DNA of 53,849 bases from Prorocentrum cordatum (Eukaryota): NCBI GenBank assembly GCA_963575745.1, contig CAUYUJ010000285.1, positions 62,001-115,849 on the forward strand, in the 5' to 3' direction. This document shows positions 24,653 to 53,510 of the stretch, one piece after another. The position numbers and the translations under genes were made by a program. Position 1 is the first letter of the stretch, and each line of letters begins with the position of its first letter. The notes beneath the pieces are model-generated. The model was not told the origin of the DNA. It ran no database searches and saw only the letters and a program-made list of their open reading frames with translations.

Positions 24653-25173
24653 GCTCTTGAGTATTGCATACGGCTCGCCTGTCTGTTCGATTTCTTGCTG
24701 GGCGAGCGCCCAGAAATACGACCAGGTGCAAAACGTTCTGATTCGAGCGATCGTGGTTAAAACAGTACAGAGACAGGCATCCCTCTACGTCGTCTTCTGA
24801 GGCTGTCGCCACTCCGCGGTATTCAGGGGGTCGGGGGAGTTCCCAAACCTAGGAGAAGATAAGCAGTGCCAGCACGTGTTTCTTCTGAAGTTTGATAGAA
24901 CGGTGCGATCCCTTCTTTGTTCTGTAGCTGTGTGGCCCGCCCGCCACTCCCTTTATATAGCAGAGCGCTCTTGAGTATTGCATACGGCTCGCCTGTCTGT
25001 TCGATTTCTTGCTGGGCGAGCGTCCAGAAATACGACCAGGTGCAAAACGTTCTGATTCGAGCGATCGTGGTTAAAACAGTACAGAGACAGGCATCCCTCT
25101 ACGTCGTCTTCTGAGGCTGTCGCCACTCCGCGGTATTCAGGGGGTCGGGGGAGTTCCCAAACCTAGGAGAAGA
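24653..25173 (+). repeat. E1 3' end: B1 (24653-24859), A2 (24860-24935), spacer, B2 (24967-25173)
   Basis: Direct visual alignment; the B1|A2 boundary reproduces the predicted circle junction. Confidence 0.92.
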
Positions 25174-25384
25174 CATACATGTATACACATACATACATCC
25201 ATACACACCTACACATACGTGCACACATGCATACACACATAGATACATATATACACATACATACGCATACATGCATACACATACATACATACATGCACGT
25301 ACATACATACATATGCACATACATACATACAAACATACACATTCGTACACATATACATCAATGCGTACACACATACGTACGTAT

Positions 25385-26970
25385 GGGACACCGGCGGGAC
25401 ACCGCGGGACAGCGGCGGGACACCGCGGGCCACCGGCCGCCCGGGAGTCATTTGGTCCGGCCGCGCCTCAGCCACACGGGACACCAGCGGGACAACGGCG
25501 GGACACTGCCGGCCACCGGCCGCCCGGAAGGGAATCATTTGGTCCGGCCGCGCCTCAGCCACAGGAGACTTTCTCTCGCCCGCCCACGCAGCTTCGCCTC
25601 GCCCGTACGGCACGCACGAACACGAAACCGAAATCGATTTCCCGGTAAGGGGGCTCTCCGTTCCACTTCGATCTCACCCCCTCACCTCCGATGCACATAC
25701 ATACATACATACATTCATTCATACATACATACACGCATACATACATACATACATACATAAATACATACATACATACATAGACACATACATACATGCATGC
25801 ATGCATGCATACATACATTCATACGTACAAACAGTCATACATACAAACATACACACATACACGCATCAATCCACCCATCCATCCATACTTACGCACGCAC
25901 GTACGCACGTACCTACATACATACATGCATCCATACATACATACACACATACACACATACATTCATACATACATACATACATACATACATACATGCAGAC
26001 AGACAGACAGACAGACACACACATTCATGCATACATACATACCTAGACGACCACCCTTTATCGGTCTCGCTCGATCGATCTCACAATCGATATCACTCGA
26101 TCTATCTCACAATTGATCTGACTATCGATCTCACAATCGATCTCACAGTCGATATCACATTCGGTATCACGATCGATCTCACTATCGATATCACAACCGC
26201 TCCCACAATCAACGTCATCATCATAATCAACAACAACATCAGCATCAACATCATCATCACCAACATCATCATAATCGGGACACAGCCCTCATCATCAACA
26301 CCAACATCATCATCATCATCACGGTCATCAACATCATCGGGACACCACCATCATCATCATCACCACCATCACCACAATCATCATCATCATCATCAACATC
26401 AGCATCATCATCATCACCATCGGGACACAGTCATCGTCATCATCATCATCATCAGCAGCAGCATCATCATCGGGACACCATCATGATCACCATCGTTATC
26501 ATCATCATCATGATCATCGGGGCACCATCATCATCATCATCATCATCTGATCCTCATCATCGACATCATCATCATCAGCATCATCAACATCAGCATCGTC
26601 ATCATCATCGTCATCATCGGGGCACCATCATCATCATTACCAACATCAGCATCAACATCATCATCATCATCAACATCATCATCACCATCGGGACGCCATC
26701 ATCATCAACATCATCATCATCATCACCATCACAATAATTATCATCATCGGGACGCCATAATCATCATCAACCTCATCATCATCAACATCATCATCATTGG
26801 GACACAATCGTATTCAGCATAATCAACATCAACATCATCATACTCATCATCATCGGGACACCATCATCGTCATCATCATGGCCATAAACATAATCATCAT
26901 GATCATCCTCATCCTCATCATCGGGACACCATCAGCATCATCATCATCATCCTCATCATCATCATCATCG

Positions 26971-27011
<41 letters not shown>

Positions 27012-27156
27012 GGGACACCATCATCATCATCATCATCATCTCATCATCATCATCATCATCATCGTCCTCTTCATCACCATCATCATCAGCATCACCATCA
27101 TCATCATCGTCATCATCAACAGCATCATCATCATCATCATCATCATCAGCATCACG

Positions 27157-27204
<48 letters not shown>

Positions 27205-27236
27205 TTCATCATCATCAACATCAACATCAACATCAA

Positions 27237-27309
<73 letters not shown>

Positions 27310-27920
27310 GCGGGACACCGCGGGACACCGGCGGGGGACACCGCGGGGCACCGCGGACACCGCGGGACACCGCGGGACACCGGCGGGACACCGCGGGCCA
27401 CCGGCCGCCCGGAAGGGAATCATTTGGTCCGGCCGCGCCTCAGCCACACAGGACTTTCGCGGGACACCGGCGGGACACCGCGGGCCACCGGCCGCCCGGA
27501 AGGGAGTTATTTGGTCCGGCCACGCCTCAGCCACAGGAGATTGCCCGCCCACGCAGCTTCGCCTCGCCCGCACGCACGGCACGCACGAACACGAAACCGA
27601 AATCGATTTCCCGGTAGGGGGGCTCTCCGTCCCACTTCGATCTCACCCCCTCACCCCCGACATACATGCATGCATGCATACCCACATACCCACATACCCA
27701 CATACCCACATACCCACATACCCACATACCCACATACACACATACACACACACACACACATATACACATGCACACATACATACATACATACATACATACA
27801 TACATACACATACATACATACATACATTACATTACATTACATTACATTACATTACATTACATTACATTACATTACATTACATTACATTACATTACATTAC
27901 ATACATTATATACATACATG
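25385..27920. repeat. Two copies of a ~310-bp GC-rich module (25385-25690; ~27360-27660) with intervening (CATA)n and (CAT)n and trailing (TACAT)n
   Basis: Shared cgggacaccg repeats, tttggtccggccgcgcctcagccac and cacgaaaccgaaatcgatttcccggta. Confidence 0.85.
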
Positions 27921-30900: not shown

Positions 30901-31444
30901 TCTGCAACGTGCGACATGCAGGCCGATGAGAGGTGAGCGGTGCAGATTCTGAGCATGTCCGCAACCTGGTTCCTCTCTTTTTCATCGCCCCAAAATCTCG
31001 CAGCGATTTGGGGGGCAGGAAAATCCTGGGAGCGGGCCCCTTGGTGGCCTCTTCCCCTCGGGGCCTCTGCGGCTTTCAATGCTCGCTCTCACTGCTTGGC
31101 AGTGCCCTGGCGGCGCCGCGGACCTTTCTCACAGTCGGTGGCCGCTGGCCGGCGGATTTGGCGGTGCCACGCCCTGCCTCCTTCCGCTTGTCTTCCGCTT
31201 CTGTTGCTGGCGGCTGGTTGGTGATTGATTGGCAGGCTTCTCGTCCCAGACTGCCCCGCGTGCCCGGATAGCACCTGTGGCAGTTGCTGTTCGCTCTCGC
31301 CCTGGCGCCGGCTACCGTTCATACGCCTCAGCGCTGGCCACCCCATGGTTCGGCTGGTGTGTCGCTGGTGCTCTCGTCGCCACTCTGAGCCCTGCCCGTG
31401 CTCTCGTTGCCACGGGTTGGGGGTTGGCACTGCTCGGCATCGGC

Positions 31445-32295: not shown

Positions 32296-32441
32296 CTGCC
32301 GTATCGGGCCAGCCCCAGTGGGCTGCGCATTGGCTGCGCCCCGGGTTGGCTGCTAAGCGCTCGTGCATTGAACGTGGAGACGTTTCGGACCCAGGCGTGT
32401 CCAGGGGGCAAGGCCCCGCTCCAGGCATGTATTGGCCGTTG

Positions 32442-32463
32442 TGCGCAGTCACTTGGGCTCAAG
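32442..32463 (+). promoter_or_regulatory. SL-like motif 52 nt upstream of the A gag ATG
   Basis: tgcgcagtcacttgggctcaag, 17/22. Confidence 0.65.
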
Positions 32464-33781: not shown

Positions 33782-34516
33782 GCGGCTTTCGTTAGCGGAA
33801 ACAGCAGTGAAGATTCTCGTGCGGCCGCTCTCCTCTGGGATGGTCCTGTGCGCTCGCACGGACCGTTGGGCGACACACAGCGTGCAGCCGGGCAGGGGAG
33901 CACGAGAGACCCCAAGGAGCCCTCGAGACCCAGCCCGGCTAGCACACAAGACACCCCAGGGAGGGCGGGCGGGAAAGCCGGCCGCGCCGGCAAAAGCGAC
34001 GCCCCAGGCGACCAACGCCCGCGGCCCGCAGGAGGGCGCGCCGGCCCGCCAGAGCGTCGCCCCGACGAGGCCGCGCGCGCCCAGGCCACACTGCACAGCC
34101 GTTGGCCTGCAGCGTAGCCACGCGGCCCCCACGGGAGCACTGGCCGATATTTGCTACCCCGCCTCGGGCCCGGGCGGCAAGGGGAGCGGAGACGCCGAAA
34201 GGCAACCGAATCACCGAATCCCCGAATGGGGACAGAAGCGGCCTGTGAGAATCTTCCTCCCCAGAACCAAAGCTTAGGGATGATGAAGATTCTCGTGCGG
34301 CCGCTCTCCTCTGGGATGGTCCTGTGCGCTCGCACGGACCGTTGGGCGACACACAGCGTGCAGCCGGGCAGGGGAGCACGAGAGACCCCAAGGAGCCCTC
34401 GAGACCCAATGCTGGGGCTCTCGGCGACCCGGACCCCAACCCCACTGCTGACGACGAGAGCACAGCAGCACTGATGATGGCACAGACCCGACGATGATTT
34501 TCACAGTCTCCACTGC

Positions 34517-36020
34517 TCACGGCGCGCCGTCGGACGCAGACGAGTCCGAAAACTCCACTGGCCACTCCGCAGCAGTCATGGCGTCTCTGGAGGCGGCAGA
34601 GGCGTAGCCGAACGCAGCGACGCCACGCCAGCCTCCACTGTGGAAGAGCGCCGGCACGCCGCCCGCCGCTAAACACTCGTCCGCCCAGCCTCTGCGGAAG
34701 GCATGTGTACCCCACTCGGCCGCGCGCTCGAAGCCGAGCGCCAGCGCCGATGCTTTCAGCGTGGCCAGAGCCGCCCTGTAGGACAGGCCAGGGAAGAGGC
34801 GCCCCCGCCCAGCCCGGCGCTGCAGGACGCACACCCCGCACAGCTGCCGCGACTGGAGAACGCAGATGCACCGCCTCGTCACCACCACTGTCTCTGTGTG
34901 CATCTTGCGCTTGTGCAAGTAGATGCACGCCTTGGGCAAGCCCCCGTCGACCGAGAGCACGACCCTGGAGTGCGACCCGTCGCTCCAGAGGCACCACCTC
35001 CGACGCGAAACGGAGACAGAAATGTCTGGCGACCACGAAGGAATCCGCCACCAGCGGATCCCGGAGCACCTCCCGCACGTGGCCAGCAACGCTGCGGGTG
35101 TCGTGCGCACTGGCCCGCGCTCGAAAGCGGCTCGTGCCGGGCACCGTTTTGGCGGCCCCCCGTGCCAGATTTGAGGTATCTTCCAAACACCCCAGAGGGA
35201 CCCGGACCAACCGCAGGGCCGCCCGGACCTGTGTGCAGTACGTCATCAGCGTGTTGCCGTTCTGCACTGCGAAAGGGCCCTTGGCTACCTGGCCCCAAAG
35301 CCGCACTGCGGACGCATACTTGTAAGCACTCCGATGCCACCCGCAGAGCTCTCGTCTCAAAAGCTCCTGCGTCGCTGCAAACTCAGACATATTGCCCACC
35401 AGTTGCAAAGCACGCTCTCTCGGGTTGCCCCCTGCGCCTCCGTGACGCCGAGCCCATGCCACTTGGAGCTCTTCAGGCGTAACGCGGCCCAGCGTTTGCA
35501 CTGCGTCGGCCAAGTCCTTGGGCTCCAGGAACGTCCTCCGAAAGCGAGCTGCGGCCAGGAAGCCAAGAGCAGCAAGGGCAGCTTCAGCTTCGCCCCCTTC
35601 TGGCCCTGCGGGCGTGGCGCTTTCCACCAAAGGCGATGCGACCTCACCGCTCGGGCCGCCGCTGCCCTGGGAGTGCCCTGCCGGCGGCGCCACAGGAGAG
35701 CGCTTCCCGGAAGGGAAAATGGCCAAGAATTCACTGGCCAGCTCTCGAAGGCACGGCCAGACGTCCCGAAGTTCCTGCACACTCATGTCGTTGAAGTCAT
35801 CTCCAACCACGGCCCCGCCACTGGCGAGAGCGCGCAACACATTGTCAGGCGATGCCGGGTGGTAACGCGGCGGCGTGCGCCGAATCACCCCTGTAAACCA
35901 CTGTGCAAGAGCAGGCGGCACCACATCATGGGAGCATGCTTCTTCTGGCGGCTCAGGGTCCGAAGCGCCATCGCCCAAAGCCCACCGCGCGCGTTTGCGG
36001 TTGATGAACTCAAGTGCCAT
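34517..36020 (-). CDS. Element B tyrosine recombinase, one frameshift near 34975
   Basis: Starts MALEFINRKRARW; FCLRFASE (R), WGTHAFRRG (HxxR), GGWRG, FGYA (Y). Confidence 0.85.
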
Positions 36021-36042
36021 GTTGGGCCAAGCTGACTACGGA
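36021..36042 (-). promoter_or_regulatory. Dinoflagellate spliced-leader-like 22-mer abutting the B YR ATG
   Basis: tccgtagtcagcttggcccaac vs DCCGTAGCCATTTTGGCTCAAG, 17/22. Confidence 0.7.
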
Positions 36043-36136
36043 TGACTGCGTGGGAGGCCGTGCGCCGGAGTACGCGGCAAGAAACGCTGACGAATCAACA
36101 ACTGCACTTTTTTCCTTCCTCGCGAATGCATGCCCG

Positions 36137-37440
36137 TCACCGCCTGTGCTGCCAGAAATCCACTGCCGGCCAAGCCCACTCGAGGCGAGCGAAGCCGCGA
36201 GAGACCAGCTGTGCCAACTCCGATGCCTTCTGCTCTGGACGAGTTGGCCAGTCTGCCAAATTTAAATGTGAAGGCACGCGGAATGCACTTAAAAAGTGGC
36301 CACGGTCTGCTGCAGCAAACCACACGCCAGCCACCATAGCATTCCAGTCACGCTGGCGGGAGCACCCGCGGAGCAGCGTCCCGAGTGCGACTGTCGAGTC
36401 GATGAAAATCACAACGTCGAGCCCCGCTGCGCCTTCGGGCAGACTGAAAAACTGCCAGAGTGCACACACTGCAGCTACTAGTTCCCAGGTGTGGATTTGC
36501 TGCTGACGCGGGCAGGCCCACCTCGCAAGCCAGCCCGGCACTGGCGCTGAAGCGAAAAACTTACGCCCGGCCAGCACTGCCACCCAAGCCAGCACGCCTG
36601 CTCCCGAGGCGTCAGTGTACACCACCAAACGTGGCTTCACCGATGGCGACAGCGGGACGGCCCTGCTTGGCTGCGAATTGAGGAAACGCTGCCACCACAG
36701 GAGCGCAAAGCGCAAACGCTTGGAGATGCGAGTGCTTCTCCCGGCTGAATGCCGGAAGAGCGGCGCCAGATAGACGCGCGCGCCCTTCCCGAAGACTGCT
36801 GTGGCCCCCCAGCTGAGCCGGCCGGCCAACTTCTGCGCGCGCGCTGGCGTTAAACGCTGGTCCCGGAGCACCTCTGCGATTTCCGCCAGCCACTTGGCGC
36901 ACTTGTCGCTGGGCACGACAAAATTTAAACACTCTGTGGTTGCGTCCACGGACACACGAACGCCCAGCGCAACAAAACTCAACGCTGCCGTAACTGCTTT
37001 ATGTGAATCAAGACGCCAGCCCAGCAAGTCCTGGATGACGAATCTAGCTAAAGAGGCGGCGCCTACGGCGCTATCACCCCATTCGTGCGCTTGCTCTGCA
37101 TCAATGCCGAAAAAATCGTCCACGAAACGTGGATACACGATGCTAAACAAACGCAAAAGTATGGCTTGAAAAGCCGCGCCCACGCGCTGCCAGGCATGGA
37201 CACTCGCCTTCCCCCCAAATGGACAGCAGAACAGCTGCAGGAACTGATCCTGCGAGACGGACTCCGCCGTCACAGCGGCCGCAAACGGGAGGTGCTCACT
37301 ATGCAGCGGGAGAGTTTTGTAGGCCTCGCAGACGTCATCCTTGCGGAAGCGGACGTCCGCTGCGCTGGCTCCACCAGCGACGAGGCACTGCGCCGCCGCC
37401 ACTAAATCATCGAGAGTTTCGTGGGCGACGCGTTCGGAGA
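36137..37440 (-). pseudogene. pol: Element B 5'-truncated RT-RNase H
   Basis: HETLD, RKDDVCEAYKTLP, CPFG, RFVDD, YTDASG, TWEL, FIDS, RVPSHLNLADWPTR; fused directly to repeat A1. Confidence 0.88.
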
Positions 37441-37722
37441 CCCAGGCGACCAACGCCCGCGGCCCGCAGGAGGGCGCGCCGGCCCGCCAGAGCGTCGCCC
37501 CGACGAGGCCGCGCGCGCCCAGGCCACACTGCACAGCCGTTGGCCTGCAGCGTAGCCACGCGGCCCCCACGGGAGCACTGGCCGATATTTGCTACCCCGC
37601 CTCGGGCCCGGGCGGCAAGGGGAGCGGAGACGCCGAAAGGCAACCGAATCACCGAATCCCCGGATGGGGACAGAAGCGGCCTGTGAGAATCTTCCTCCCC
37701 AGAACCAAAGCTTAGGGATGAT

Positions 37723-39501
37723 GCTGCCAGCGATGATTCGGCCACTTTTGTCGCCGGCGGTGCTGTTGGTGCGTCTCCGCTCCGTTCTGCCCCGCGGGGG
37801 GAGGTGGAGCTTCCTTTTCAGTTTGCATGCCTCGATTGTCCTCGTGTCGCTGCGGCGCGGAGGGCTGTGCATAGCTTCCTGGACGATCCTGCAGTGCGTG
37901 ATTGCACGCCGCTCGATCATTTGAACTGGGCTCTGGGTCTTCCGTCCTGTGACGAGCTTCCCGAGATCCCTGCAGCTGTGGCAGACTCGCTTTGCCAGGT
38001 GCTTGCCTTCGACGGGCATGCGTTGGCCGAGTCCCGCGCTGCGAGCCTCGAGTACTGGCGGCAGCGCAAGCGCGTGCTGGACCCACTGTGGGCGGGCAAA
38101 TTCGCGGGATTGCCTGCGCACGTCCGCAGCGTTCTTGGTCCGAAGAAAAATTTGCTTGTTCTGTCGGAGATGCTCGAGGCGATCAGCTGGCCCGACGACC
38201 GGCTGGTGCGCGACCTGCAGTGTGGTTTCCCTCTGATCGGCGAAATTCCGCGCAGCGGGGTTCTGCCATGCATCTCTTTCTCTGCTCCCGCTGAAAATGC
38301 GGTTTCTTTGCGCGCACAGGCGCCAGTTTTGAACTCTGTCACGCGTCGCCGTGTGAGGCGGCCTCGGGCTGTGGAGCAGTCCGTTCGCGATGCGTTTGAG
38401 CAGAAATACATCGAAGAGGCCAGCGATGGCCACGCAAGGTGGCGCCCGTTGCGTGACACATGCGTGCTCACAGCCAGGTTTCCAGCCGACGAGGGCTGGA
38501 GAGGGGATTCACGGAAGGTGCGCTGCGTCGACGATTTCACGGCATCCCGTGTGAATGCGGCTGTGTCAGTGGGTGAAGCCATCCAGCACGACACGCTGGA
38601 CCATTTCGTTGCCGTGGCGTGCAAGGTTGTCCGCGCGGGCGCTGGCGGAGCCGCGCTTCGCAAGGAGGATTTCGTAGGTGCGTTCAAGACCCTTCCCCTC
38701 GCGAGCTCCCACCTGCAATTTGCGGTGGTGACGTGGGGTTCGGCGGAGGCCCGCGGACTGGGCCTGCAGCTTCTCGCTTGTCCCTTCGGCGCTGTCGCGT
38801 CCGTGTACAAGTGGGAACGCTTTGGCGCGGCCGTCCGGGCAATTTTGGCCAAGCAGTTCCATGTTGTTTTCCTCCGGTTCGTGGACGACCTTTTTGGGCT
38901 GGACGGAACCCTCGAGGGCGCGCCGCACTTGGCAGCGCCAGCTGGGGCCAGCGCAGTTGCCGCAGAGGTGATATCTGAATTGCTAGGGTGGGAGCTCGAC
39001 GCTTCCAAGCGCGTTTCGGCGTCAGCAGCGGCTCCGATCCTTGGAGTTGACTGCGCGGTCGAGCGCGAGGCCTGCGCTGTGCGATTGTCGGTTGGCCCTG
39101 ATAAGCTCTCGCGATGGAAGCGCCAGATTCAGGACATTCTTGCGCGGCAGGCGATTTCCCCAGCAGAAGCCAAGAAGTTGGCCGGCAAACTCAGTTGGGG
39201 AACCTCAGCGGTTTTCGGCCGAGCAGCGCGCGTGCATTTGGCACCCCTGTTCCGCCACTCTACCGGGGAGTCTGGGCGTTGGACCGGGCGCCTGGAGCGG
39301 GCGCTTCAGTGGTGGCTGCGTTTTCTAGACTGCGTGCCGCAACGGCGCGTATTTAGCTTGCAGCCCACAGCCAGGACCAAGTGCATAGTTTACTCTGACG
39401 CCACTGGCGGTGGTGACCTCGCCTGGGTGGTTTGTGCGCCCAACGCGCGCGTCTGGTCCTCGGCACGAGTTTCCGGTGCTGTCTGGCGCTGGGTTTGCTA
39501 T
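37723..39501 (+). pseudogene. pol: Element A pol (RT + partial RNase H), disrupted by insertions B and C; first codons at 33782-33808
   Basis: KVRCVDDF, KEDFVGAFKTLPL, CPFGAVASV, RFVDD, KLAGKLSW, YSDATG. Confidence 0.88.
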
Positions 39502-39842
39502 GAAAACACTACCGACGACCTCCGCGGGAGCAGTGGGACGCGACAGACCCCGCTGCCTGACTGGGAGACTCTGGGACAAGTCCAAATCCCCAGTCAGGCG
39601 ATCGCCGAAAACCGAACCACCACCACCAGGGCGGGTGGGCGGGAAAAACCGAACACCGAGCAGCCGGCACCAAGAAGACCGCCCCCAGCGGCCCACCGAG
39701 GGAGCGCGCCGCCAGTGACCAACACCGCGGGCACCATGGCCGCGAGCACACGGCCACCGAGCCCCCGAAAGGGAACTGCGGCGCCACCGCCCCCAAGGGC
39801 AAAGACGACGACGACGCCGACGACAGACAGACAGACAGACAG

Positions 39843-39910
<68 letters not shown>

Positions 39911-40319
39911 CGGCCCAGAGAGACCGACGGACAACCGCGACCTCACCGAGGCCCCCAGGCGCGTGAGAAGCAACACCGCCGACGGGAAGCGCCGCCAGGC
40001 ACCACCAGCTCCACCAGGAGCACCCACTTTGGGATAAGGCGAGTGAGCAAAGAAGCGGAGGAGTACATAGACAACTCCGGCCGCTCGTTGTTTTCTCGCG
40101 CTGAAAACGCTACGCGTTTTCGCGCGGAGAAAACACTACCGACGACCTCCGCGGGAGCAGTGGGACGCGACAGACCCCGCTGCCTGACTGGGAGACTCTG
40201 GGACAAGCCCAAATCCCCGCTGCACCCAGACCTCCCAGGCGGAAGCTGACCACGCGTTGCCTGTGAAGCAAGAGAGAATCTTTTTGGAACCACAGCCAGG
40301 CCCAATGCACCAAGAAAGT

Positions 40320-41871
40320 TCACTCGCCGTCTGACGAGCTCGAATGCTCGACCAAAAATTCAGCTGCCTGCAGGGCCCCACGTGCCCGGGCACTGGCGTA
40401 CGCAAAGGCAGTCAACCCACGCCAGCCTCCACTGTAGAAGAGGGCAGTCGGACCTCCTGCTTTGAGAGCATCCGAAGCCCAACCACGCCTGAAAGCATGC
40501 GTGCCCCACGCCTGCGGGGACCTCAGATTGCACGCGGCCGCTGCTAGTTTTAAGAAAGCCAGCGACTCGGAATAAGATATGTGTTGGAACGGTGGCTCTT
40601 TGGCCTCGACAACAGGCACTAAGGCGCACACGCCGCACAAAGACGGCCCCTGCGTCCCGCATATGCAGCCCCTGACCACTTCAACTGGCTCCTTGTAACA
40701 TTTCCGCCGCAGAAATGTTACGATCACCTGCTTCTTGCCCTTGGCCTCCTTGATTCTAAGTGGGGCCAGGCTCGTACCAATAATCAAGGTTTCACTATAG
40801 CGCAAGGTGAAGTGGCGCGACACAACCCACGACCGAGCCACGTCCGGCCTGGATGCCGTCTCGGAAGCCCACTTTGCCAGGGCGCGCGTGTCTCCTGGCG
40901 AAGCCCTCAACTTCACGGCGAGTCGCCGGATCCGTGGCCTTCTCAGCGCCCCGAATCAAGCGGGAAGTGTCCGCCAAAGGACCTGGTGAACTTTTCAACC
41001 AAGCCAACACTGTTCGAAGACGAGACACATACTGCGCCAACGAAGCTCCGCTCCGAAAGAGAGACACGAAGCAATCCAAGATGCACTCCTGAGGGGGCCA
41101 AGGCTCCACGCGCACCGTAGCCGCTGCCTGTCCCCACAAAACCACAGCAGGCGCATAACCCAAGGCACTTTTTCGCCAGCCTTGAAACTCAATCCAGCAT
41201 GCCCGCTCCGCGAAGACGGCGGCGGGAGCGGGGCTTCGTTGAGCTTCGCGAGCTTCAGCTGTTGGCGCCTGGCCAGGCATGTCCACGGGCGGCTCTGGCA
41301 CTTTGTGGAGCACGCGTATGGCGTGTGCCAGTACCGGCGGCGGGGGGACACAAACCGATTGCCTTGCAGCCACTACCAGTCGCAATGCTGCGAGCGCTTG
41401 CGCCATTTCTTCGGCTGACGCCGAGGCTGGCGCAGCTGGACCCGCCAATGAACGCTCACGGCTGTGAGGCTGGCGGTCCGTCTGCGATTCCTGCACCGCT
41501 GGCTGCTGCATCCCCCTATCCGCTCGACCACAGAACAACAGAAAAACCTTGACGATGGCAACGTCCAGCTGGCCCAGAGCAGGCCAAACCTCCTGCGCCT
41601 CGAAAGCGTCCAACGAGCCAAAATCACTGAAGGAAGTCGCGCCGTCGCGTTGCAGACTTGCTGCAATGCCGTCCGCGTCATGGACGTCCTGCTTCGCGGC
41701 GCCACCGGCCCTCTGAAGCACGCTCGCCAATTCACCGCGCCAGCGATCCGCAGGATGGCCAGGACGTGGAAGGGAAGCGCCAGGCGGCAGTGCTGGCTCG
41801 CTGGCCTCAGGAAGCCCCTCTCGTAAGCGCTGCCATCGCGCCCGCTCTGCGTTGACAAAACTCAACGCCAT
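40320..41871 (-). CDS. Element C tyrosine recombinase, frameshift near 40915
   Basis: Starts MALSFVNAERARW; GWRKSA..Y, FTLRYSE, WGTHAFRRG, GGWRG, FAYA. Confidence 0.85.
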
Positions 41872-41896
41872 GTGCCGGCCTGCAACCCGCAATCTG

Positions 41897-41916
41897 TTTG
41901 AGCCGAAGGCTACGGA
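41897..41916 (-). promoter_or_regulatory. SL-like motif 25 nt upstream of the C YR ATG
   Basis: tccgtagcc--ttcggctcaaa, 18/22 with a 2-nt gap. Confidence 0.72.
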
Positions 41917-42014
41917 AGACAAAGCAGAAGTGCCAGGCAGAAGCCGCACGTGGAAAACTGAGTGCGCCTGCGCTGCGCATATTTTCCTTCCGCGGACACC
42001 CAGCCATTGCCGCC

Positions 42015-44169
42015 TTAGCTGTCCCAGGGGAGCGCTGGCCAACGCCAAGCCGTCTCCCGGAAAGACAAGCTGTCTAGTTCAGCGCGGCTCTGCTCTGCTT
42101 TACTTACGCGAGTAGGCCCATCTGCCAGATTCAACGCAGAGGGGACATAATGAGCGTGCATAAGCACACTTGCTGCAGCTAGATCGAACCAGATGGTGCC
42201 CAAAACTGCGTTGAGGTCAGGCTGCCGGGAACTGCCACGCAAAAGTGCGCTCAACGCCGCTGTGTTGTCGATAAACACAATGAGCTCTGGTGACTCGACT
42301 CCTTGCTCCAAGAAAAGCCGCACGCCGCACAATGCTGCCACTAATTCCCAGAGGGTCACCTGCGTGCGCCTGGGCCGAGCCCAAGCCCAAGCTCTAGACG
42401 GAATCTTTGCTGCCGCCCAGACACGCTTTGACAGAGTTTGAAGCACTACAGCCAAGTTCCCTCCGCCAGTGGCGTCAGTGTACAGGATGCACCTCTGGAG
42501 CGGAGGTTGGCTGAACCGCACGAAAACGGAAGGGTCAGAACTTAAAAACCGTTCCCACCACTGCAGAGCATTGCGCACGCGAGCTGCCAGCGTACGTTTC
42601 CGTTGGCTGCTCTGCCAGAAGAGCGGTGCCAGAAAAACTCTCGCACCGCGGCCAAAAACCGCTGTGGTCCCCCAGCTAAGGCGACCAGCAAGTTTAGCAG
42701 CCTCTGCTGGCGCCAACGCGTCACTACGCAAAGCATCACGAATTTGCTGGAGCCACTTATTTTTCTTCTCGCACCCAATCCAAAACCAAATGCCCTCCAG
42801 GCAGGCCTTCGCCTCTACGCCTAACACGGTCATTTGTGTCGCCTCAGCAACTGCTTTGGATTCATCTAGCAGCCAGCCAAGCAAGTCCACGATCACTGTG
42901 CGCGCCAACCCCGCCGACCCTCGCGGACCCACCAAAGATCCGGGATCCGCGGTGCTCGCGCACGCGTCTGCGCCGAACAAATCGTCGACGAAACGCGGAT
43001 AAGCAAGCAGAAATATACGGGCCAAAATTGCTTGCACCGCGCTACCGAATCGATGCCACGCAAACACAGAAGCCGCCGCGCCAAAAGGACAAGAGAGCAA
43101 CTGTAATCCCTTGTCCTGCTGCGCAGCACTACTCCACGTGGCAACTGAAAACCGGAGATGGTTCTCCTGCACAGGAAGCGTCTTGAACGCACTCTTAAAA
43201 TCATCCTTGCGGAAGAGCAGAGGCGAACCCCCCTCTGCAGCGTCAAAACAAGCCCGGGCCACACCAACAAGTGCATCGAGCGTGTCGTGACGCATTTCCT
43301 CTGGAATGCAAGTGGCAGAATTGAGACCGTTGCCACTGAAATCGTCGATCAGACGTACTTTCCTACTCCTCTGCCCGGCACGTTCCCGCCAACCTTCGTC
43401 GACAGGGAAGCGGACTGCAAGCAAAGCATCTACGGCGGAAAGCTAAACCCAAAAAGCTTTCCTCTGCGCAACCTCTTCTTTGCATTTGTTCTCAAACGCC
43501 TCCTCTACCGCGGGGCACAGCGACGTGCGGGCCCACACCTTGCACAAAGTGTCGGCGTTGATAGCGCCCACCGAAGATTCCAGCGCACTTACGGCCACTG
43601 GTTCGGACACGTGCCGCTTCGGAGGCATTATACCGGAAGGATTCAACCTACCTACGATCGGAAACCCGAAAGCTAAGTTATGTACAAGCTCTTTATCTGG
43701 CCACGCGATGCTCTCGAGCATCTCCGCGAGAAGCAGCAGATTCTTCCCCGGCCCTACCAGCTGCTGCACGTGCAGCGGTAATCCCTGCAGAATTTGCTCC
43801 CAGGGGACAGCCAGGTCACGTTTCCGCCCCTGCCAGTACTCTAAAGCGTCAGCGCGCCATCTATGCAAAGCCCCCGGGCTGAGAGCCGAGGATTTTTGAA
43901 TTGCATCCTGCAGCAAAGGGGGGCAAGCAGCCCTCACGCGCGACGCGCGGCAAAGACTGCGCCCATTTAAAATGCACCACAGGTGTCATAGCAGACCGGG
44001 CGTCCCGATCCTGTAGCAGAGCATGCACGGCCGAACGGATCTCGACAAGAAAACCCTTTCCACCACTACCTGGAAACTCGATTGTTTCCTCTGTACCCTG
44101 AGAAGAGCTCCCGTCAGAAACCTCGCTCAGTTGTTCCTCCACGTCTGTGTCGGGGAATCGTCCTTCCCC
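42015..44169 (-). pseudogene. pol: Element C pol (RT + RNase H), frameshifts near 43920 and 43440
   Basis: ORF pieces 43861-44142, 43443-43937 and 42015-43424 are collinear with D pol; KVRLIDDF, RKDDFKSAFKTLP, RFVDD, YTDATG, FIDN, YVPSALNLADGPTR. Confidence 0.88.
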
Positions 44170-45624: not shown

Positions 45625-46549
45625 GCTGCATGCTTGCGCGCATAACAACAATGACTGGCTGCAACGGATCATGACCGATACTGCTGTTGCACCGGGACAT
45701 GGGCGCACGCAACGTTGCAGCCCCAGAGAGCCCGCACCTGCGTCCCGCAACCAGTTCTTCGAACGCGCCCAGCTGTCACCGACGGCGCGCCAGCGGCTAG
45801 AGCCACACCCAGCAAGAAGGAGGGAAAGAAGAGAGTCCTCCGCTCCGCTCCGCCTCCGACGGCACCAACTCGCACAGTGACGCTGCTGCGCATCCCGGCG
45901 ACCCCCCTTTGACGTTAATCGCGGCCAGGGGGGCCACTCGGGTCACCCTTGCGCGAAACCATGCAAGCTACAGCGGTGCCACGCCAATCCCAGTCGAACC
46001 CCTTTGACCGCCGAGCGGCCAGGGGAGCCACATGGGTCTCCCTGCACCCCCCCCTCCGCCAGGCCAGGTCAGAGCAAGGAGAGAGGAATTTTGAGCGTAA
46101 CGAGGCCTGTTTTGGCCAAGTAACCTCACGCGAGAGGGCTTCCGCTCATCCCACGCTACTTCGGCTGACCATCGTCGGACATTTTTCATGATTCATAAAC
46201 TCGTTTATGCTGCAGGAAAACCGTGAGGAGCAGCCCCACGTGTGTTTGCCTCCACTCCTCAATTCCTGCACGCTCAATGCCTGCGCAGCGGGCTGGTGTC
46301 GGCGGCCGGCGGTTTCTGCGCGAAGCGGCGGAAGTATGCTCACCTTGCTCTGTTCGTGTGTACTCTGGTGCGGTCTCGCATGGCGGTTCGCCCGCGCTGC
46401 TCGGGTCTCGTCTGCTGGGCCGATCGTGTCTCGCAGTTCTTCTGTCGCTGCTCCCGTGCGCTGGCTCCTTGAAGCCAGATCGAGAATGCTCGCTGATACG
46501 AGCAGCGGCAAAACAAAACTCGCCGACAGCGGCTGCACAAACAAGACAG

Positions 46550-47010
46550 GCTCCCTGATAGGAGCGGCGCGTCCGAAGCTCCCTGAAAGGAGCTGCGCCT
46601 GCGTGCTCCCTGATAGGAGCCAGCGGCGCCTAGCGCTCCCTGAAAGGAGCTGCGCCTGCGTTCTCCCCGACAGGAGCGGCGCCCTAAAGCTCCCTTGCGC
46701 GTGTTCCCTGACAGGAGCAGCGGCCGAAAACTCCTTGACGGGAGCGGCGCCTCGAAGCTCCCTGATAGGAGCGGCGCTTCAAAGCTCCCTGACAGGAGCG
46801 GCCCCCCCAGAACAGAAGTTCGCCGAAGGGGGCGGCGCCCCATGCTCCCTGAAAGGAGCTGCGCCTGTGCGCTCCTCGACAGGAGCGCTGCCCACCAGAG
46901 CTCCTTCCTGTGCTCCCTGACAGGAGCAGCACCCCCAGGCTCCCTGAAAGGAGCTACGCTTGCGTGCTCCCAGACAGGAGCGGCCCCCCCAAAGCTCTAT
47001 AGCAGGAGTC
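46550..47010 (+). repeat. Array of ~15 palindromic units gctcc-ctgaNa-ggagc (period ~27 bp) in D repeat A1; shorter copy at ~53025-53290
   Basis: Counted directly. Confidence 0.85.
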
Positions 47011-47264
47011 GCGCCTGCGCGCCTCCTGGGGCGGTTCCGTGGCGCTGCGCCGGCGCGCCCCCCAGCAACAGCCTGGCGGCTGTCTGCCAACTTTCTGAGC
47101 GCCGGGCGTCCGAGTGCCCAGAATTACATTCTGTGCTCGTTTCTGCGCTCTGGTGCCAGGCGCGACTTGGCGACCATTTGGGCCTCGCGAGTGTTGTGCT
47201 TCGCACAATTGGGGTTTTCATATTCAGTCGGAAGGACTGCCATTGCTGGAGAGTTTGGTCATTA

Positions 47265-47286
47265 CCTGTCGCTTTTTAGGCTCAAG
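47265..47286 (+). promoter_or_regulatory. SL-like motif 83 nt upstream of the D gag ATG
   Basis: cctgtcgctttttaggctcaag, 16/22. Confidence 0.6.
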
Positions 47287-47369
47287 TGAACCACTCCTGC
47301 TGGGATTGAACCCTTCTTCGCACTGCAGCGTGCTCCACAGGTGTAAGTTGCAACCCAGCCGTGCCCACC

Positions 47370-48713: not shown

Positions 48714-50833
48714 GCGGTCACGCCGCTCGCTGACAGTGCCGACGGTCAGCAGTCGGAAAGCGAGTCAGGGGACGATGAGCCCATGGAGCGCTCTTCGGCT
48801 CGTCCCAGCGCTGCTTTTAAGCATTCTAAAGCTGGGCTGTCGCATGTCGGTGCGCGTGTACATAGCTTTCTCGCTCGCGATGATTTGCATCGCCTAGATC
48901 CATGGGATCACTTGGAGTGGGCGTCGGCCTTGCCTGTTTGCGCAGAAGTTCCTCTTTTGCCGCACTTTTTGGAAAAAGGCTGCGACCGCGTGACAAGATT
49001 GACCCCTGCAGAATTGCACTCGGCTCGTAAATCAGCGCTCGCTTACTGGTCGGAGAGGAAGCGAGTGACGGAGCCCTGCTGGCAACGCGCGTTCGCGCAG
49101 CTGCCAGCGCACTGCCAAGGTGTGTTAGGGCCCCGGAAAAATCTTTTTCTCCTTAGCGAGATGCTTGAGTCCATCAGCTGGCCAGACGCCACGCTGATTA
49201 GCAATTTAATGCACGGTTTTCCTCTTGTCGGCTTGCTCCCAGCGAGTGGGATGCGCGTTCCGACAGGGAACGCAGCGCCGGAGGTAACCAAAGCTGCTCT
49301 ATTGGCCACTGCGAGCGTTCAGAACAGACGCATTTTGCGGCGATCGTCTTTGCCACTCGGGATGGACAGATCTGTCTGCGAAGTTTTTGCTTCTGCATGC
49401 GACCGGGAGGTCGCGGACGGCAAGGCTAGAATGCGTCCGTTGAACATAGAAACTTGTGTTTTAACCCCGAGATTCCCAATCGTGCAAGGTTGGAAGACCG
49501 TAGGCTGGGAAACGTTTCCCAAAGTTAGATGCATCGATGATTTTTCTGCGTCGCGCATCAATGAAGGCACGCAAGTATCCGAGAAGATGCTTCCCGAAAC
49601 GCTAGACTCACTTGTAGCGCTGGTGTTGAAGCTCACAAAATCAAGAACAATGCGCATTCGTTGGCGCAAAGATGATTTTGTGCAAGCCTTCAAGACACTA
49701 CCAATATGCAGCTCTCACCTTCCATTGGCAGTTGTCGTGTGGCAGGAGGCGTTGGCTAAAGACCAGTGTCTCCAGCTCCTGGCAATGCCCTTTGGCTCTT
49801 CCGCCTCCGTGTCCGCCTGGGAGCGGTTCGGTTTGGCAATTCAGGGCGTGCTTGCGCAGATTTTCCTAGTGCTGTACCTTCGCTTCGTCGACGATCTGTT
49901 TTCGGGCGACGCGATGGAAGAGCAAATAGATGTTGGCGGAGACCCTCTGACGGGCCCTGCTGGCACTGCCAAGCTGGCCAGGTACGTAATTTCAGATCTT
50001 CTCGGCTGGGATTTGGATGCCGCCAAGGCTGTCACAGAACAGCCATCGGCCACCATTCTCGGCGTCGGCGTTCGTTTTGATGACGCCCGGCAAGAGATAG
50101 TTTTTGACGTGGGTCCGGAGAAGCTCGAGTTGTGGAGCTCCCAAATCGTCAGGGCCCTCAAAGCGGGCGCGTTGCCGCCGGCAGAAGCGCAGAAGCTGGC
50201 CTTGCGTTTGAGTTGGGGTGCCAGCTCAGTTTTTGGCAAGGGGGCGCGTGCTCCGCTGGCAACTTTGTTCTTTCATGGCGCAGGCCGCACCAGCCGTCTC
50301 ACTGCGAGGACGAGGCTCGCGCTCATATGGTGGCGTAAGTTTTTGCAATCGCCACCCTCGCGGCGTGTACCGCTGCAACTCCGCGAGCGCCAGCGGTGCA
50401 TTTTGTACAGCGACGCAACCGGCACTGGCATGATGGCGTGGGTGCTGCACGCTCCTTTCGCCAAAGTCTGGGCCGCCACCAGGGTGCCCGACAGCGCTCG
50501 CCAATGGGCACACTGGCGAAAGAACCAAATCGGCACCTGGGAGCTGATGGCAGCGATCTGCGCATTGAAATGGATTTTAAGCATTGGCCAAGCAGATCTC
50601 GAGATCATCTGCTTCGTCGATAACAAAAGCGCATTGGGTGCGCTTGTGCGAGGTTGCTCGCGGAAGTCCGATTGGAATTGTCTGATTGGCAATCTGTGGC
50701 TTCTCGTCGCCGACAAGGCGCAGATGCCCCCACACGGCCGTCTGAGAAGGCAGAGCAAATTGCCGAGCTGCAGGCGCGAAATTTTCAACGCGTTGAGTGG
50801 CTGTTTCCGCCGGATGCACCCTGGGGCGGCTGA
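48714..50833 (+). CDS. pol: Element D pol (RT + RNase H), in frame with gag after TGA; small deletion/frameshift near 50722
   Basis: KVRCIDDF, RKDDFVQAFKTLP, MPFGSSAS, RFVDD, YSDATG, TWEL, FVDN. The VPSxxNLA segment is missing; DAPTR...PWGG* resumes in another frame. Confidence 0.88.
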
Positions 50834-50905
50834 GAAAAAAGTGAAACAATAACATGTGCACAGGTTCTGATTGGAGGAAGAATGCCATGCGCCAGTCTTG
50901 CCTTC

Positions 50906-50923
50906 TCCGTAGTATCGGCTCAA
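50906..50923 (+). promoter_or_regulatory. SL-like motif abutting the D YR ATG
   Basis: tccgtag-tatc-ggctcaa keeps both ends of the SL. Confidence 0.62.
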
Positions 50924-52431
50924 TGCTTAGTTTTGTAAACGAGAGCCGAAGCAAGCGTCTGCGTGCTGAAGGTGCCCCGCCAGGGCAGCCGAGCGATGTG
51001 AACTCGGTTTTCGCTTGCGTGCTGCAGGGCGTGGCTGGCGTGAATATGGTTGATATCTCTGGTCTTTGCGAAGCTCTGGAGAACGGTGGCTTCCAGCATT
51101 TGTCTGATTTGGGCGGCTTGGAAGCAAATGAATTGGTAGATCTCGTCCCTGCGTTTTCTGGACAGAACGTTGCGCTCGTCAAAGCCTTCTTGGCGCAGTG
51201 TCAGCGCCAGGCCGACCGAGAGTTAGCGGCCGCGGCGTGCCGACAGGCAACGCTCACCGAGGCTGCCTCGTCCTCTTCAGGGGCTGGGGCAGAGGCGCAA
51301 ACCCGAGTTGCGACCCAAAGCGATCCACGTGAGGCAGCCAACGACGAGCAAGGTCGTGCTGGCTTGATCTTGCTTGGTGAATCGCGCCGTGCTCGCGTTG
51401 TTCCCGAACCTCCTGTGCTAGCAGCCGCGCTGGCGGCCGCCGCCCGCTGCAATTGCTATCCAGGGGCGGAGCCAATTGGCAGGCCCCGTGAAGAAGTCAA
51501 ACGTGCACGTCGCGATGTTCCTGGCGGAGATCATCTCCATCTCCACACTCTGTGGGTCGAGTTCGCTGCCTGGCGAAAAAGTGCTCCACAATACGCTTCC
51601 GCCGTCCGCTTGTGGGGCGAAGCTGCCAAGGCCATTTCGGCGCCCAGCTGGCCACCGTCCGAATCTGTTCTCAATGCCTTTGTGGGGTTATTCCGTAATG
51701 GGAACAGTTTGCAAAAATATGTTTCTCATGTTCGCAGTGTGCTCTACCTATTGCAGGCCCCTCTCGGTGTTCTCGACGACACAGAAAGGCTGGCCAGGGG
51801 TGCCGAGAAAATTACCCGAGACGTATTCAGGAGAGTGAAGATCCGGGCGACGGCGGAAGAAACCAAACTCATCCGCAAGTGGTGCGCTGAAGCTGGATAT
51901 CCGCTGTTGGCGGCGTCGTGGGTGATCGCTCGCCAATTTTGTTTGCGTTACTCTGAGTTGCTGCTCCTCGGGTCAAATGTTGTGACATTCCGCTTCAGCG
52001 GCGATGAACGCAAAACCTGTGTCATTCGTTTCGCGCATCGCAAATGTTACAACGAACCGTGTGAGACAACCAGACGTTGTATTTGTCAGCTGCAAGGGCG
52101 CTCCTTGTGTGGCGTCTGCGAATTATTCTCTGTAGGAGCAGCAGTGTCGGTCCCCTTCGCAAGCGTGCAATATGCCGACGCTCTTGCTGTTCTCAAACTT
52201 GCAGCAGCCGCTTTGCAGTTGCGGAGTGCTGCGGCCTGGGGCACGCACGCTTTCAGGCGAGGCTTTGCCGACGAGGCGCTCCAACAAGGAGGGCCCGCAG
52301 CTTTGTTTTCTAGTGGTGGTTGGAAGGGCGTGGCGGCTTTCGGTTACGTCAGCGCCCAAAGTCGCGGTGCTTTGTCGGCGGTCGAATGGCTAGTTGACCA
52401 CTCCGACTCAAGTGACGGCGAGCAAGCCTGA
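50923..52431 (+). CDS. Element D tyrosine recombinase (502 aa, intact)
   Basis: Starts MLSFVNESR; FCLRYSE, WGTHAFRRG, GGWKG, FGYV. Confidence 0.9.
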   Translation: MLSFVNESRSKRLRAEGAPPGQPSDVNSVFACVLQGVAGVNMVDISGLCEALENGGFQHLSDLGGLEANELVDLVPAFSGQNVALVKAFLAQCQRQADRELAAAACRQATLTEAASSSSGAGAEAQTRVATQSDPREAANDEQGRAGLILLGESRRARVVPEPPVLAAALAAAARCNCYPGAEPIGRPREEVKRARRDVPGGDHLHLHTLWVEFAAWRKSAPQYASAVRLWGEAAKAISAPSWPPSESVLNAFVGLFRNGNSLQKYVSHVRSVLYLLQAPLGVLDDTERLARGAEKITRDVFRRVKIRATAEETKLIRKWCAEAGYPLLAASWVIARQFCLRYSELLLLGSNVVTFRFSGDERKTCVIRFAHRKCYNEPCETTRRCICQLQGRSLCGVCELFSVGAAVSVPFASVQYADALAVLKLAAAALQLRSAAAWGTHAFRRGFADEALQQGGPAALFSSGGWKGVAAFGYVSAQSRGALSAVEWLVDHSDSSDGEQA

Positions 52432-53510
52432 CTGTGGCATCGTGTGCGTGGGGTTGTAAAACCAATAGGAACAGGAAGCGGTCCTCACGATGTACCCCTG
52501 CCAGGCGCTGCCGCGCGGTCCGTCGCCTTCTGGTGCATTGGGAGCCCAAGGGCGGTATCCCAGAAGGCTCCTGCCAGCCAGGCAGCGCCGTTCACACGCC
52601 CTATGCTGGCGCAAGGACGCCGGCCATTCTACAGTGGGCCTGGCTACCGCAATGGTTTTCATGATTCATAAACTCGTTTATGCTGCAGGAAAACCGTGAG
52701 GAGCAGCCCCACGTGTGTTTGCCTCCACTCCTCAATTCCTGCACGCTCAATGCCTGCGCAGCGGGCTGCGGTGTCGGCGGCCGGCGGTTTCTGCGCGAAG
52801 CGGCGGAAGTATGCTCACCTTGCTCTGTTCGTGTGTACTCTGGTGCGGTCTCGCATGGCGGTTCGCCCGCGCTGCTCGGGTCTCGTCTGCTGGGCCGATC
52901 GTGTCTCGCAGTTCTTCTGTTGCTGCTCCCGTGCGCTGGCTCCTTGAAGCCAGATCGAGAATGCTCGCTGATACGAGCAGCGGCAAAACAAAACTCGCTG
53001 ACAGCGGCTGCACAAACAAGACAGGCTCCCTGATAGGAGCGGCGCGTTCGAAGCTCCCTGAAAGGAGCTGCGCCTGCGTGCTCCCTGATAGGAGCCAGCG
53101 GCGCCTAGCGCTCCCTGAAAGGAGCTGCGCCTGAAAGGAGCTGCGCCTGTGCGCTCCTCGACAGGAGCGCTGCCCACCAGAGCTCCTTCCTGTGCTCCCT
53201 GACAGGAGCAGCACCCCCAGGCTCCCTGAAAGGAGCTACGCTTGTGTGCTCCCAGACAGGAGCGGCCCCCCCAAAGCTCTATAGCAGGAGTCGCGCCTGC
53301 GTGCCTCCTGGGGCGGTTCCGTGGCGCTGCGCCGGCGCGCCCGCGAGCCCACATGGCGCGCGCTTCCCGCCTCGCGGCAAAAGCCACCATGTGGCCGAAA
53401 ATGCGGAGCAGCGTGCCCTGCCAGGTTGCTAGCAGCCAAACCCTAGGGAAAGGCGAAGCGCCGAACAGTTTGCCGAAGGGCAGGGACTGCTTGCAGCTAC
53501 CGCTGCGAAC

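What the first reader, a model, noticed from the sequence alone, without database searches (positions are those of the whole stretch)
24841..52700. All four visible circle junctions fold into an asymmetric, attC-like hairpin
Seen, in element orientation with | as the B-A junction. E1: agaaga|taagca-gtgc-ca-gcac-gtgtt-tcttct (24854-24886). B: gagaatcttc|28 nt-gaagattctc (~34247-34294). C: tgttttc|tccgcgc-gaaaacgc-gta-gcgttttc-agcgcga-gaaaaca (40089-40135). D: ggttttc|atgatt-cataaac-tc-gtttatg-ctgcag-gaaaacc (52654-52695). The sequences differ but the architecture is the same: the 3' terminus pairs with a site 21-33 nt into A, with an inner stem, and the crossover sits off-centre. Known: integron IntI and XerCD/CTXphi recombine folded single-stranded sites, and DIRS-1 is reported to make single-stranded cDNA. 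Inference: these YRs may integrate a folded ssDNA junction rather than a dsDNA circle.
Basis: partly seen in the sequence, partly recalled or inferred. Interest (0 to 1): 0.76.

Follow-up and report, generated by a model that had tools for sequence, protein, structure and literature searches.

The report
attC-like fold-back at retrotransposon end junctions
In several jumping genes of a likely dinoflagellate genome, the point where the element's two ends meet is a four-part fold-back sequence laid out like the bacterial integron attC site, so their recombinase likely inserts a folded single DNA strand, a mechanism that is untested here.

Summary
The four inverted repeats are at the stated coordinates, at B|A junctions of split-direct-repeat tyrosine-recombinase (DIRS-order) retrotransposons. 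C, D and B fold better than shuffles. E1, from another recombinase group, has only a 6-bp stem and folds no better than shuffles. In the C/D clade the site has four boxes (TTT-N11-AAA, variable apex, TTT-N11-AAA): outer stem, 7x7-nt spacer, inner stem, with the element boundary at the spacer's 5' edge. The same layout lies 220-259 nt after the recombinase stop in 5 of 9 related loci. The outer stem is paired in 34 of 35 cells across five families, and non-box bases add stability (Fisher p 1.5e-6). All 8 readable insertions show the product expected from one sense-strand exchange. Against: box covariation also fits protein binding on dsDNA; strand bias is weak; the DIRS-1 single-stranded cDNA is antisense and its authors favour a double-stranded circle; there is no biochemistry. 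A's missing end was not checked directly; an A-like relative ends GATTTTC. It works like attC or CTXphi attP (about 0.55) but is not an attC. The scan noted similar junction hairpins on other DNA.

The parts
18902..18978 (+). E1 repeat A1 (left end), inserted in a (CATA)n array; 1 nt (A) shared with junction and right end
20722..24564 (+). E1 long ORF: RT, RNaseH-like region, C-terminal C5-methyltransferase-like motifs (FFSGSG, PC)
   Evidence: Pfam RVT_1 E 2e-6; motifs read from the translation, their meaning recalled
22502..23848 (+). E1 tyrosine recombinase in a second frame (LRPSE, HQLRH, GRW, RRY)
   Evidence: distant homolog P0024 carries PF00589
24653..25173 (+). E1 B1 (24653-24859), A2 (24859-24935), gap, B2 (24967-25173)
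24854..24886 (+). E1 junction: 6-bp anchored stem, weak hairpin, no TTT/AAA boxes
30979..31026 (+). Left end of element A (first base inferred at 30984) behind host TTTTTC; four-box layout with box 1 supplied by the host
   Evidence: E 0.063; 85% over 46 nt to the L001 junction
33808..37723 (-). Element B: A1 37723-37441, YR gene in two frames 36020-34517, B1 34408-34284, A2 34285-34003, B2 33932-33808; CA shared by junction and both ends
34247..34294 (-). B junction: 10-bp outer stem, 28 nt between arms, weak inner stem
   Evidence: last-ranked hit (E 1.8) of the C+D model
39502..39591 (-). Element C repeat B2 (right end, ends GTGTTTTC, followed by host DNA of element A)
40089..40135 (-). C junction: four boxes, 7x7 spacer that can pair with two single-base bulges, -21.7 kcal/mol
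40320..42048 (-). C tyrosine recombinase, frameshifted near 40913 in this copy
46183..46224 (+). D left end: host TTTTC followed by A1 with the element's own spacer and boxes 2-4
50854..52431 (+). D tyrosine recombinase, open 525-aa frame (CLRY, RK, HAFRR, GGW, FGY); catalytic domain about 323-495
   Evidence: lambda Int Z 11.9, rmsd 3.6, 150 aligned
52654..52695 (+). D junction: 7-bp outer stem, mostly unpaired 7x7 spacer, 6-7-bp inner stem; 229 nt after the YR stop; B2 absent from the window

Best explanation
The B|A junction of these retrotransposons is a fold-back with four similar boxes, and it likely acts as a folded single-strand recombination site for the element's own tyrosine recombinase. 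Shown: boxes 1/4 and 2/3 are complementary, the two spacers are equal and fixed in length, the apex varies, and the element boundary lies at the 5' edge of spacer 1. Inferred: the sense strand (from a single-stranded intermediate, or extruded from a circle) folds into outer stem, 7-nt spacer and inner stem. One monomer on the outer stem cuts after TTTTC and exchanges that one strand with a double-stranded target that needs only a partial box (TTC to TTTTC, sometimes one base). Host replication or repair resolves the junction. This leaves the element's spacer at the left end, the host's at the right end, and no target duplication. The claim covers the C/D/A/B clade; E1 is left open.
For: (1) TTT-N11-AAA/apex/TTT-N11-AAA occurs 4 times in 19000-53849 (A left end, C junction, D left end, D junction) against a shuffled mean of 0.017 (motif defined after seeing the sites). 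(2) A covariance model built from C and D alone returns, besides its own sites, L001 (E 6e-5), A's left end (0.063), one probably chance L004 site (0.57) and B's junction (1.8) in 90 kb. (3) Of 9 related loci, 5 have the layout 220-259 nt after the YR stop (window elements 191-232): L001, L005, L007 with N11, L004 with N10, L008 with N9, equal in both halves each time. (4) Outer stem positions -7 to -1: 34 of 35 cells are Watson-Crick in five families, with 2-4 pair types at four positions. (5) Box identity outside TTT: 1-4 23/28, 2-3 14/28, 1-2 12/28, 1-3 8/28, 3-4 6/28. (6) With boxes fixed and the rest shuffled within segments, real sites are more stable: Fisher p 1.5e-6 for 7 sites, 7e-4 for C, D and L008, whose boundaries are known from repeats. 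(7) 8 of 8 readable insertions keep the element spacer at the left end and/or a host spacer at the right end: E1, B, C, D, A (inferred from 5/7 identity to L001), L008, and two other C copies in runs X2 and X5; 0.5^8 = 0.004 if two-strand heteroduplex products were equally likely. (8) Only 1-5 nt are shared with targets, which excludes 6-8-bp overlap homology. (9) The attC layout of two antiparallel core sites, unpaired central spacer, variable terminal structure and one exchange resolved by replication is described in PMC2727003 (Introduction part 1).
Against: No biochemistry or extrachromosomal DNA. The single-stranded DIRS-1 cDNA is antisense and mostly linear, and the authors treat a double-stranded circle as the integration substrate. 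Position -6 matches non-partner +13 in 5 of 5 families, so much covariation may reflect four binding sites, not pairing. D, L001 and L005 are individually not significant in the fixed-box test (p 0.09, 0.10, 0.23), and L004, L005 and L007 were spotted as hairpins first. Sense-strand preference is weak: 9 of 11 with DNA parameters (p 0.14 against a 61.5% background), 11 of 11 with RNA parameters (p 0.015), which fits an RNA role as well. L002 and L009 lack the site; L003 lacks most of B1 and has no proper outer stem. E1 folds no better than shuffles. No bulged base is conserved. The covariance model missed L005, L007, L008 and the true L004 site. One search showed only 24 of 91 loose ends. The model does not explain why only one of two identical junctions in a circle is used.
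Confidence: 0.55

Rival explanations
1. Two separate jobs. Boxes 1-2 are an ordinary double-stranded core site. The complementary 3' half makes a hairpin in the RNA or cDNA that serves reverse transcription, packaging or end joining (a splint holding the B end next to the A start, as the DIRS-1 internal complementary region is thought to do). Integration uses a double-stranded circle.
For: The junction is transcribed in split-repeat elements (recalled model). Sense strand is more stable in 11 of 11 sites with RNA parameters, p 0.015. The strict stem ends exactly at the boundary in E1, B and D. End pairing through the ICR is essential in DIRS-1 (PMC7192593).
Against: Mismatches and bulges cluster in the spacer while its length stays equal on both arms, as a recombinase substrate needs and a plain stem does not. 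It does not predict the 8-of-8 one-strand product.
Confidence: 0.25
2. No folding matters. The site is an array of four recombinase binding boxes on a double-stranded circle (core pair plus accessory pair). Integration is homology-independent, as recalled for the Tn916/Tn1549 family, with biased repair of the spacer heteroduplex.
For: All boxes share a family-specific consensus; -6 and +13 covary in 5 of 5 families. Tn1549 Int is among the tied structural matches (Z 11.1, rmsd 3.3, 144 aligned). The standard model is a double-stranded circle (PMC3266345, PMC7192593 passages).
Against: Distance between the two box pairs varies from 4 to 20 nt, off helical phase. Identity is nested (1-4) rather than core-wise (1-2). 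Non-box bases add pairing, with a compensatory C-G/T-A change between A and L001 in the spacer. An extra repair bias is needed.
Confidence: 0.17
3. Chance complementarity in short T/A-rich runs.
For: E1 folds no better than shuffles; two AT-rich background hits of the motif in the loci (L004:33, L008:1968; shuffled mean 0.43).
Against: Anchored-stem frequencies of 0.016 to 0.00014 at four junctions; 4 of 4 motif hits in the window at element ends; conserved position after the YR stop.
Confidence: 0.03

Closest known systems
Split-direct-repeat YR retrotransposons (DIRS order: Ngaro, PAT-like; SymbioDIRS with and without Dnmt3, PMC5890265; Cafeteria Ngaro, PMC8547959)
   Same: A1-ORFs-B1-A2-B2 ends, gag-like/RT-RH/YR genes, no target duplication, short sequence shared between junction and target.
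   Different: No junction fold-back or four-box site appears in the passages read. A double-stranded circle and a 3-bp overlap are the published model for DIRS1-like elements; overlaps here are 1-5 nt.
Integron attC site (PMC2727003, PMC4792948)
   Same: Two antiparallel core sites that pair outer-outer and inner-inner, a central spacer, a variable apex, crossover at the inner end of the outer stem on one arm, little sequence conservation.
   Different: 33-48 nt in the window against 57-142 nt; TTC/GAA, not AAC/GTT; no conserved extrahelical base; no attI platform or cassette array; one-strand use not shown; eukaryotic retroelement.
CTXphi attP(+) (PMC3089051)
   Same: Two core-like sites in opposite orientation that would pair to unmask one site; single exchange, host resolution.
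   Different: CTXphi borrows host XerCD, targets dif, and has about 90 nt between its sites; these elements encode their own enzyme and use loose targets.
Internal complementary region of DIRS-1 (PMC7192593, PMC3266345)
   Same: Intrastrand pairing that covers the circle junction.
   Different: The ICR is a distant copy complementary to both inverted termini; here the complement lies 21-35 nt away inside direct repeat A.

Membership tests
Split-direct-repeat YR retrotransposons (DIRS order) | A1-ORFs-B1-A2-B2 repeats | tested here: met
   Complete for E1 and B; C's A1 runs off the window; D lacks B2
Split-direct-repeat YR retrotransposons (DIRS order) | Reverse transcriptase and RNase H genes | tested here: met
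   RVT_1 E 2e-6 in E1, RVT_3 E 1.7e-4 in C, 2 of 28 ORFs plus one irrelevant hit; B, A and D have similar ORFs by eye, no Pfam hit
Split-direct-repeat YR retrotransposons (DIRS order) | Tyrosine recombinase with R, HxxR, Y | tested here: met
   Motifs conserved in alignment; D model matches lambda Int Z 11.9 and Cre Z 11.4; E1
Split-direct-repeat YR retrotransposons (DIRS order) | No target-site duplication; short junction/target overlap | tested here: met
   E1 1 nt, B 2 nt, C copies 3 and 5 nt, D 5 nt
Ngaro versus PAT superfamily | RT/YR phylogenetic placement | not tested
   No tree built
SymbioDIRS-Dnmt3 (E1 only) | DNMT domain in the Pol frame | tested here: inconclusive
   Motif-like residues in the translation; no Pfam or NCBIfam methyltransferase hit
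Integron attC | Two antiparallel core sites pairing outer-outer and inner-inner | tested here: met
   (C/D clade; not E1)
Integron attC | Central spacer and variable terminal structure | tested here: met
   7x7 spacer, mostly unpaired in D and pairable with bulges in C; apex 4-20 nt
Integron attC | Conserved extrahelical G and T | tested here: inconclusive
   Predicted bulges in C, L001, L004, L005, L007 differ in base and place
Integron attC | AAC/GTT triplets and 57-142 nt length | tested here: not met
   TTC/GAA or TAT/ATA; 33-48 nt in the window; definition; no Rfam match in 18000-53849
Integron attC | Cognate IntI with the I2 insertion | tested here: inconclusive
   IntI not among rows shown; no NCBIfam hit; the wide search did not run
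Integron attC | Only one folded strand is bound and recombined | not testable with these tools
   Indirect only: 8 of 8 insertion products
CTXphi-type attP | Uses host XerCD at dif | tested here: not met
   Elements encode their own YR; targets are unrelated beyond 1-5 nt
DIRS-1 type (ITR + ICR) | Inverted terminal repeats with internal complementary region | tested here: not met
   Terminal repeats are direct

The most novel reading that the evidence does not exclude
Eukaryotic DIRS-order recombinases integrate a folded single DNA strand by one strand exchange, an integron-like reaction that arose in a retrotransposon. The short fold-back in split-repeat elements and the ICR of DIRS-1-type elements would be two ways to build the same duplex site in a single-stranded intermediate. 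D's recombinase with its 42-nt site would be a compact structure-directed integrase for eukaryotic chromatin.
Probability: 0.4. Interest if true: 0.87.

Novelty: new variant of a known kind. Interest (0 to 1): 0.68.

Why it matters
The substrate of DIRS-order recombinases is an open question: PMC7192593 (2020, passages) says their specificity had not been investigated experimentally. This work gives a defined 42-47-nt site, a predicted cut, a predicted strand and an open 525-aa enzyme, so the question becomes an oligonucleotide assay. PMC4792948 (2016, passages) names CTXphi as the only reaction resembling cassette recombination. A eukaryotic, element-encoded third case would be a surprise, and would explain loose targets with 1-5 nt homology and no duplication.

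Tried and rejected
No whole genome is held, so no copy census was possible. Scans of viral and prokaryotic contigs found no relatives of the D/C or E1 recombinases, so E1-type junctions could not be compared. No RNA holder was listed. The G.T versus A.C strand argument was tried and downgraded: 14 versus 7 in register, and the background already favours the sense strand in 61.5% (DNA) and 68% (RNA) of 494 windows. The pair counts (7 of 13 pairs with double changes, 0/500 shuffles) are not used: that alignment holds both strands of the same sites, host-flanked ends and a probable chance hit, and is fitted to the model. MAFFT alignments A4 and A5 were out of register and not counted; the count uses the 5 N11 families and leaves out L004, L008, B, L003, A and E1. 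Sliding 64-nt fold scans did not rank the junction among the top two windows for E1, L001 or L005. The PDB sequence search gave nothing useful, Foldseek no hit below E 0.001, and IntI was not listed. An antisense-strand register (overlap = TTTTC) was considered and set aside because the second monomer's site would be unpaired beyond -7. Ten literature searches found no paper describing this site; (DIRS with integron/attC terms) returned none. The Goodwin, Poulter and Butler papers on these elements were not read, no supplements were opened, and they may mention junction palindromes.
Full report
Setting. The window is GC-rich, repeat-laden eukaryotic DNA. Named homologs of the D recombinase are from Prorocentrum cordatum and Polarella glacialis (2 named of 17 hits), so a dinoflagellate is likely. 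No genome is held. Self-BLAST and translation show five retroelements. E1 (18902-25173, +) and B (37723-33808, -) have complete A1-ORFs-B1-A2-B2 repeats. C (-) has B1, A2, B2 and the tail of A1 at the window end. D (+) has A1 and A2 but no B2. A (+) starts near 30984 and is interrupted by B and C. D's 525-aa protein keeps R, K, HxxR, W and Y motifs across homologs. Its model (mean pLDDT 74.5) matches the catalytic domains of lambda Int (Z 11.9, rmsd 3.6, 150 aligned), Cre (11.4) and Tn1549 Int (11.1), which are tied. E1's recombinase is a different group, in a second frame, with a methyltransferase-like tail on Pol, like SymbioDIRS-Dnmt3 (PMC5890265 passages).

Observation. The four stretches are as written. 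The B end is complementary over 6, 10, 7 and 7 nt to a site 21, 28, 33 and 28 nt into A; background frequencies are 0.016, 0.00014, 0.005 and 0.005. The strict stem stops exactly at the boundary in E1, B and D, and 2 bp later in C. Fold z-scores are -5.6 (C), -2.7 (B), -2.1 (D) and +0.6 (E1). So the feature is real for three elements and weak for E1.

Anatomy. In C and D the site is four boxes: RTTTTC, 7 nt, an inverted box with AAA, a variable apex, a TTT box, 7 nt, GAAAAY. As a pattern, TTT-N11-AAA/apex/TTT-N11-AAA hits four places in 19000-53849, all element ends, against 0.017 in shuffles; the pattern was defined after seeing the sites. A metagenome scan with the D/C recombinase alignment gave 9 loci. 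Five carry the layout 220-259 nt after the stop codon, against 191-232 nt for B, C and D: L001, L005 and L007 (N11), L004 (N10), L008 (N9). L002 and L009 lack it, L006 ends 80 nt after the stop, and L003 is a B-like copy that lacks about 150 nt of B1 and keeps only TTC before A. In L008 the boundary is fixed independently by an A1/A2 repeat and falls in the outer-stem register. A covariance model from C and D alone found L001, A's left end, a probably chance L004 site and B's junction in 90 kb, and missed L005, L007, L008 and the true L004 site.

Does it fold? Outer-stem positions -7 to -1 are Watson-Crick in 34 of 35 cells in the five N11 families, with up to four pair types per column. That alone is not proof: -6 also matches +13, not its partner, in 5 of 5 families, as four copies of a protein-binding box would. 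Three results go further. Box identity is nested (1-4 23/28; 1-2 12/28; 3-4 6/28). The apex varies from 4 to 20 nt while the two spacers stay equal. With boxes held fixed, the remaining bases add stability over within-segment shuffles (p 0.005 C, 0.086 D, 0.099 L001, 0.23 L005, 0.0075 L007, 0.0015 L004, 0.021 L008; Fisher 1.5e-6; 7e-4 for the three with known boundaries). A and L001 differ by a compensatory pair in the spacer. Strand preference is weak: 9 of 11 with DNA parameters (p 0.14), 11 of 11 with RNA parameters (p 0.015).

Insertion products. Junction and target share A (E1), CA (B), TTTTC (D), and TTC or TTTTC (two other C copies, loose ends in runs X2 and X5, 24 of 91 loose ends shown). 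That is too little for the 6-8-bp overlap homology of classical sites. The box symmetry puts the boundary at the 5' edge of a 7-nt spacer. By recalled recombinase chemistry (cut at the spacer edge, 3'-phosphotyrosine on the bound box) this is a cut of the sense strand by the monomer on the outer stem. A two-strand exchange across unlike spacers would leave, after replication, the host spacer at the left end in about half of the copies (inference). In 8 of 8 readable events (E1, B, C, D, A by likeness to L001, L008, X2, X5) the left end has the element's spacer and/or the right end the host's. This fits one exchange, though biased repair would look the same.

The prediction for A. A's own 3' end could not be read. 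L001 is 85% identical over 46 nt to A's left end and has GATTTTC before the boundary, 7 of the 8 predicted letters; its own stem is 6 bp. This is indirect support only.

Mechanism. Most likely (0.55) the folded sense strand is the recombination substrate, with one exchange and host resolution. The main rival (0.25) is a duplex core site plus a hairpin serving reverse transcription or end joining. A pure duplex array gets 0.17 and chance 0.03. Unexplained: where sense-strand single-stranded DNA comes from, since the DIRS-1 cDNA is antisense and mostly linear and the authors favour a double-stranded circle (PMC7192593 passages); why a circle's second, identical junction is never used in the six elements where order can be read (E1, B, C, D, L004, L008); and E1.

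Comparison. The elements are members of the known split-direct-repeat DIRS-order group (PMC8547959, PMC5890265, PMC3266345, passages). The site resembles attC in layout (PMC2727003, author summary and first part of the introduction) and CTXphi attP (PMC3089051 passages). It fails attC membership on the AAC/GTT triplets and length; extrahelical bases and the I2 insertion (PMC4792948 passages) are inconclusive. PMC3212892 (passages) gives only the classical inverted-repeat site for Cryptons. Ten searches of the open library found no description of this site; key subscription papers and all supplements were not seen. Earlier AI notes of this scan report junction hairpins in the same genome, a diatom element and Cryptons; these are leads, not support.

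Verdict. A real, conserved and apparently undescribed recombination-site architecture in a known element class, with a testable integron-like mechanism. Novelty: new variant of a known kind. Interest 0.68.

Noticed in passing
window 33959-33973 (+), 39629-39643 (+), 24632 downward (-); The only three perfect short-loop G-quadruplex motifs in 19000-53849 lie on the antisense strand of B and C in the A2-B2 gap and just before B1 of E1. E1's gap has an imperfect one, and a CCCGCCC loose end follows D's A repeat in run X3 (47097). Possibly a priming or processing signal.
   Followed up: partly
window 50854-52431, residues about 52-126: The D recombinase has an N-terminal helical domain weakly like RadA/Rad51 N-terminal and NusA repeat domains (Z 6-7, below the tool's caution level), and a conserved CIC...LCGVC cysteine cluster inside the catalytic domain that could bind zinc.
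   Followed up: no
window 53349-53687: D's A2 stops about 30 nt short and B2 is absent; the following 340 nt (with a 50-bp tandem repeat) may be C's 5' leader, so D's right end looks deleted.
   Followed up: partly
window 37722-37730 and 33800-33809: B's two host flanks carry a short inverted repeat (GCAG and CTGC) around the shared CA and no TTTTC box; one case only.
   Followed up: no
window 28700-53849: Four related elements are nested (B and C in A, D in C), consistent with their preference for short TTTTC-like targets or for each other.
   Followed up: no
L008:9764-10688: A roughly 0.9-kb derivative with A1, only the last 100 codons of the recombinase, B1 and an intact junction with an outer stem of about 18 bp: a likely non-autonomous element.
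   Followed up: partly
window 50719-50722: Three of four runs carry 39 extra letters here, in the long RT-RH frame of D, relative to the window copy.
   Followed up: no
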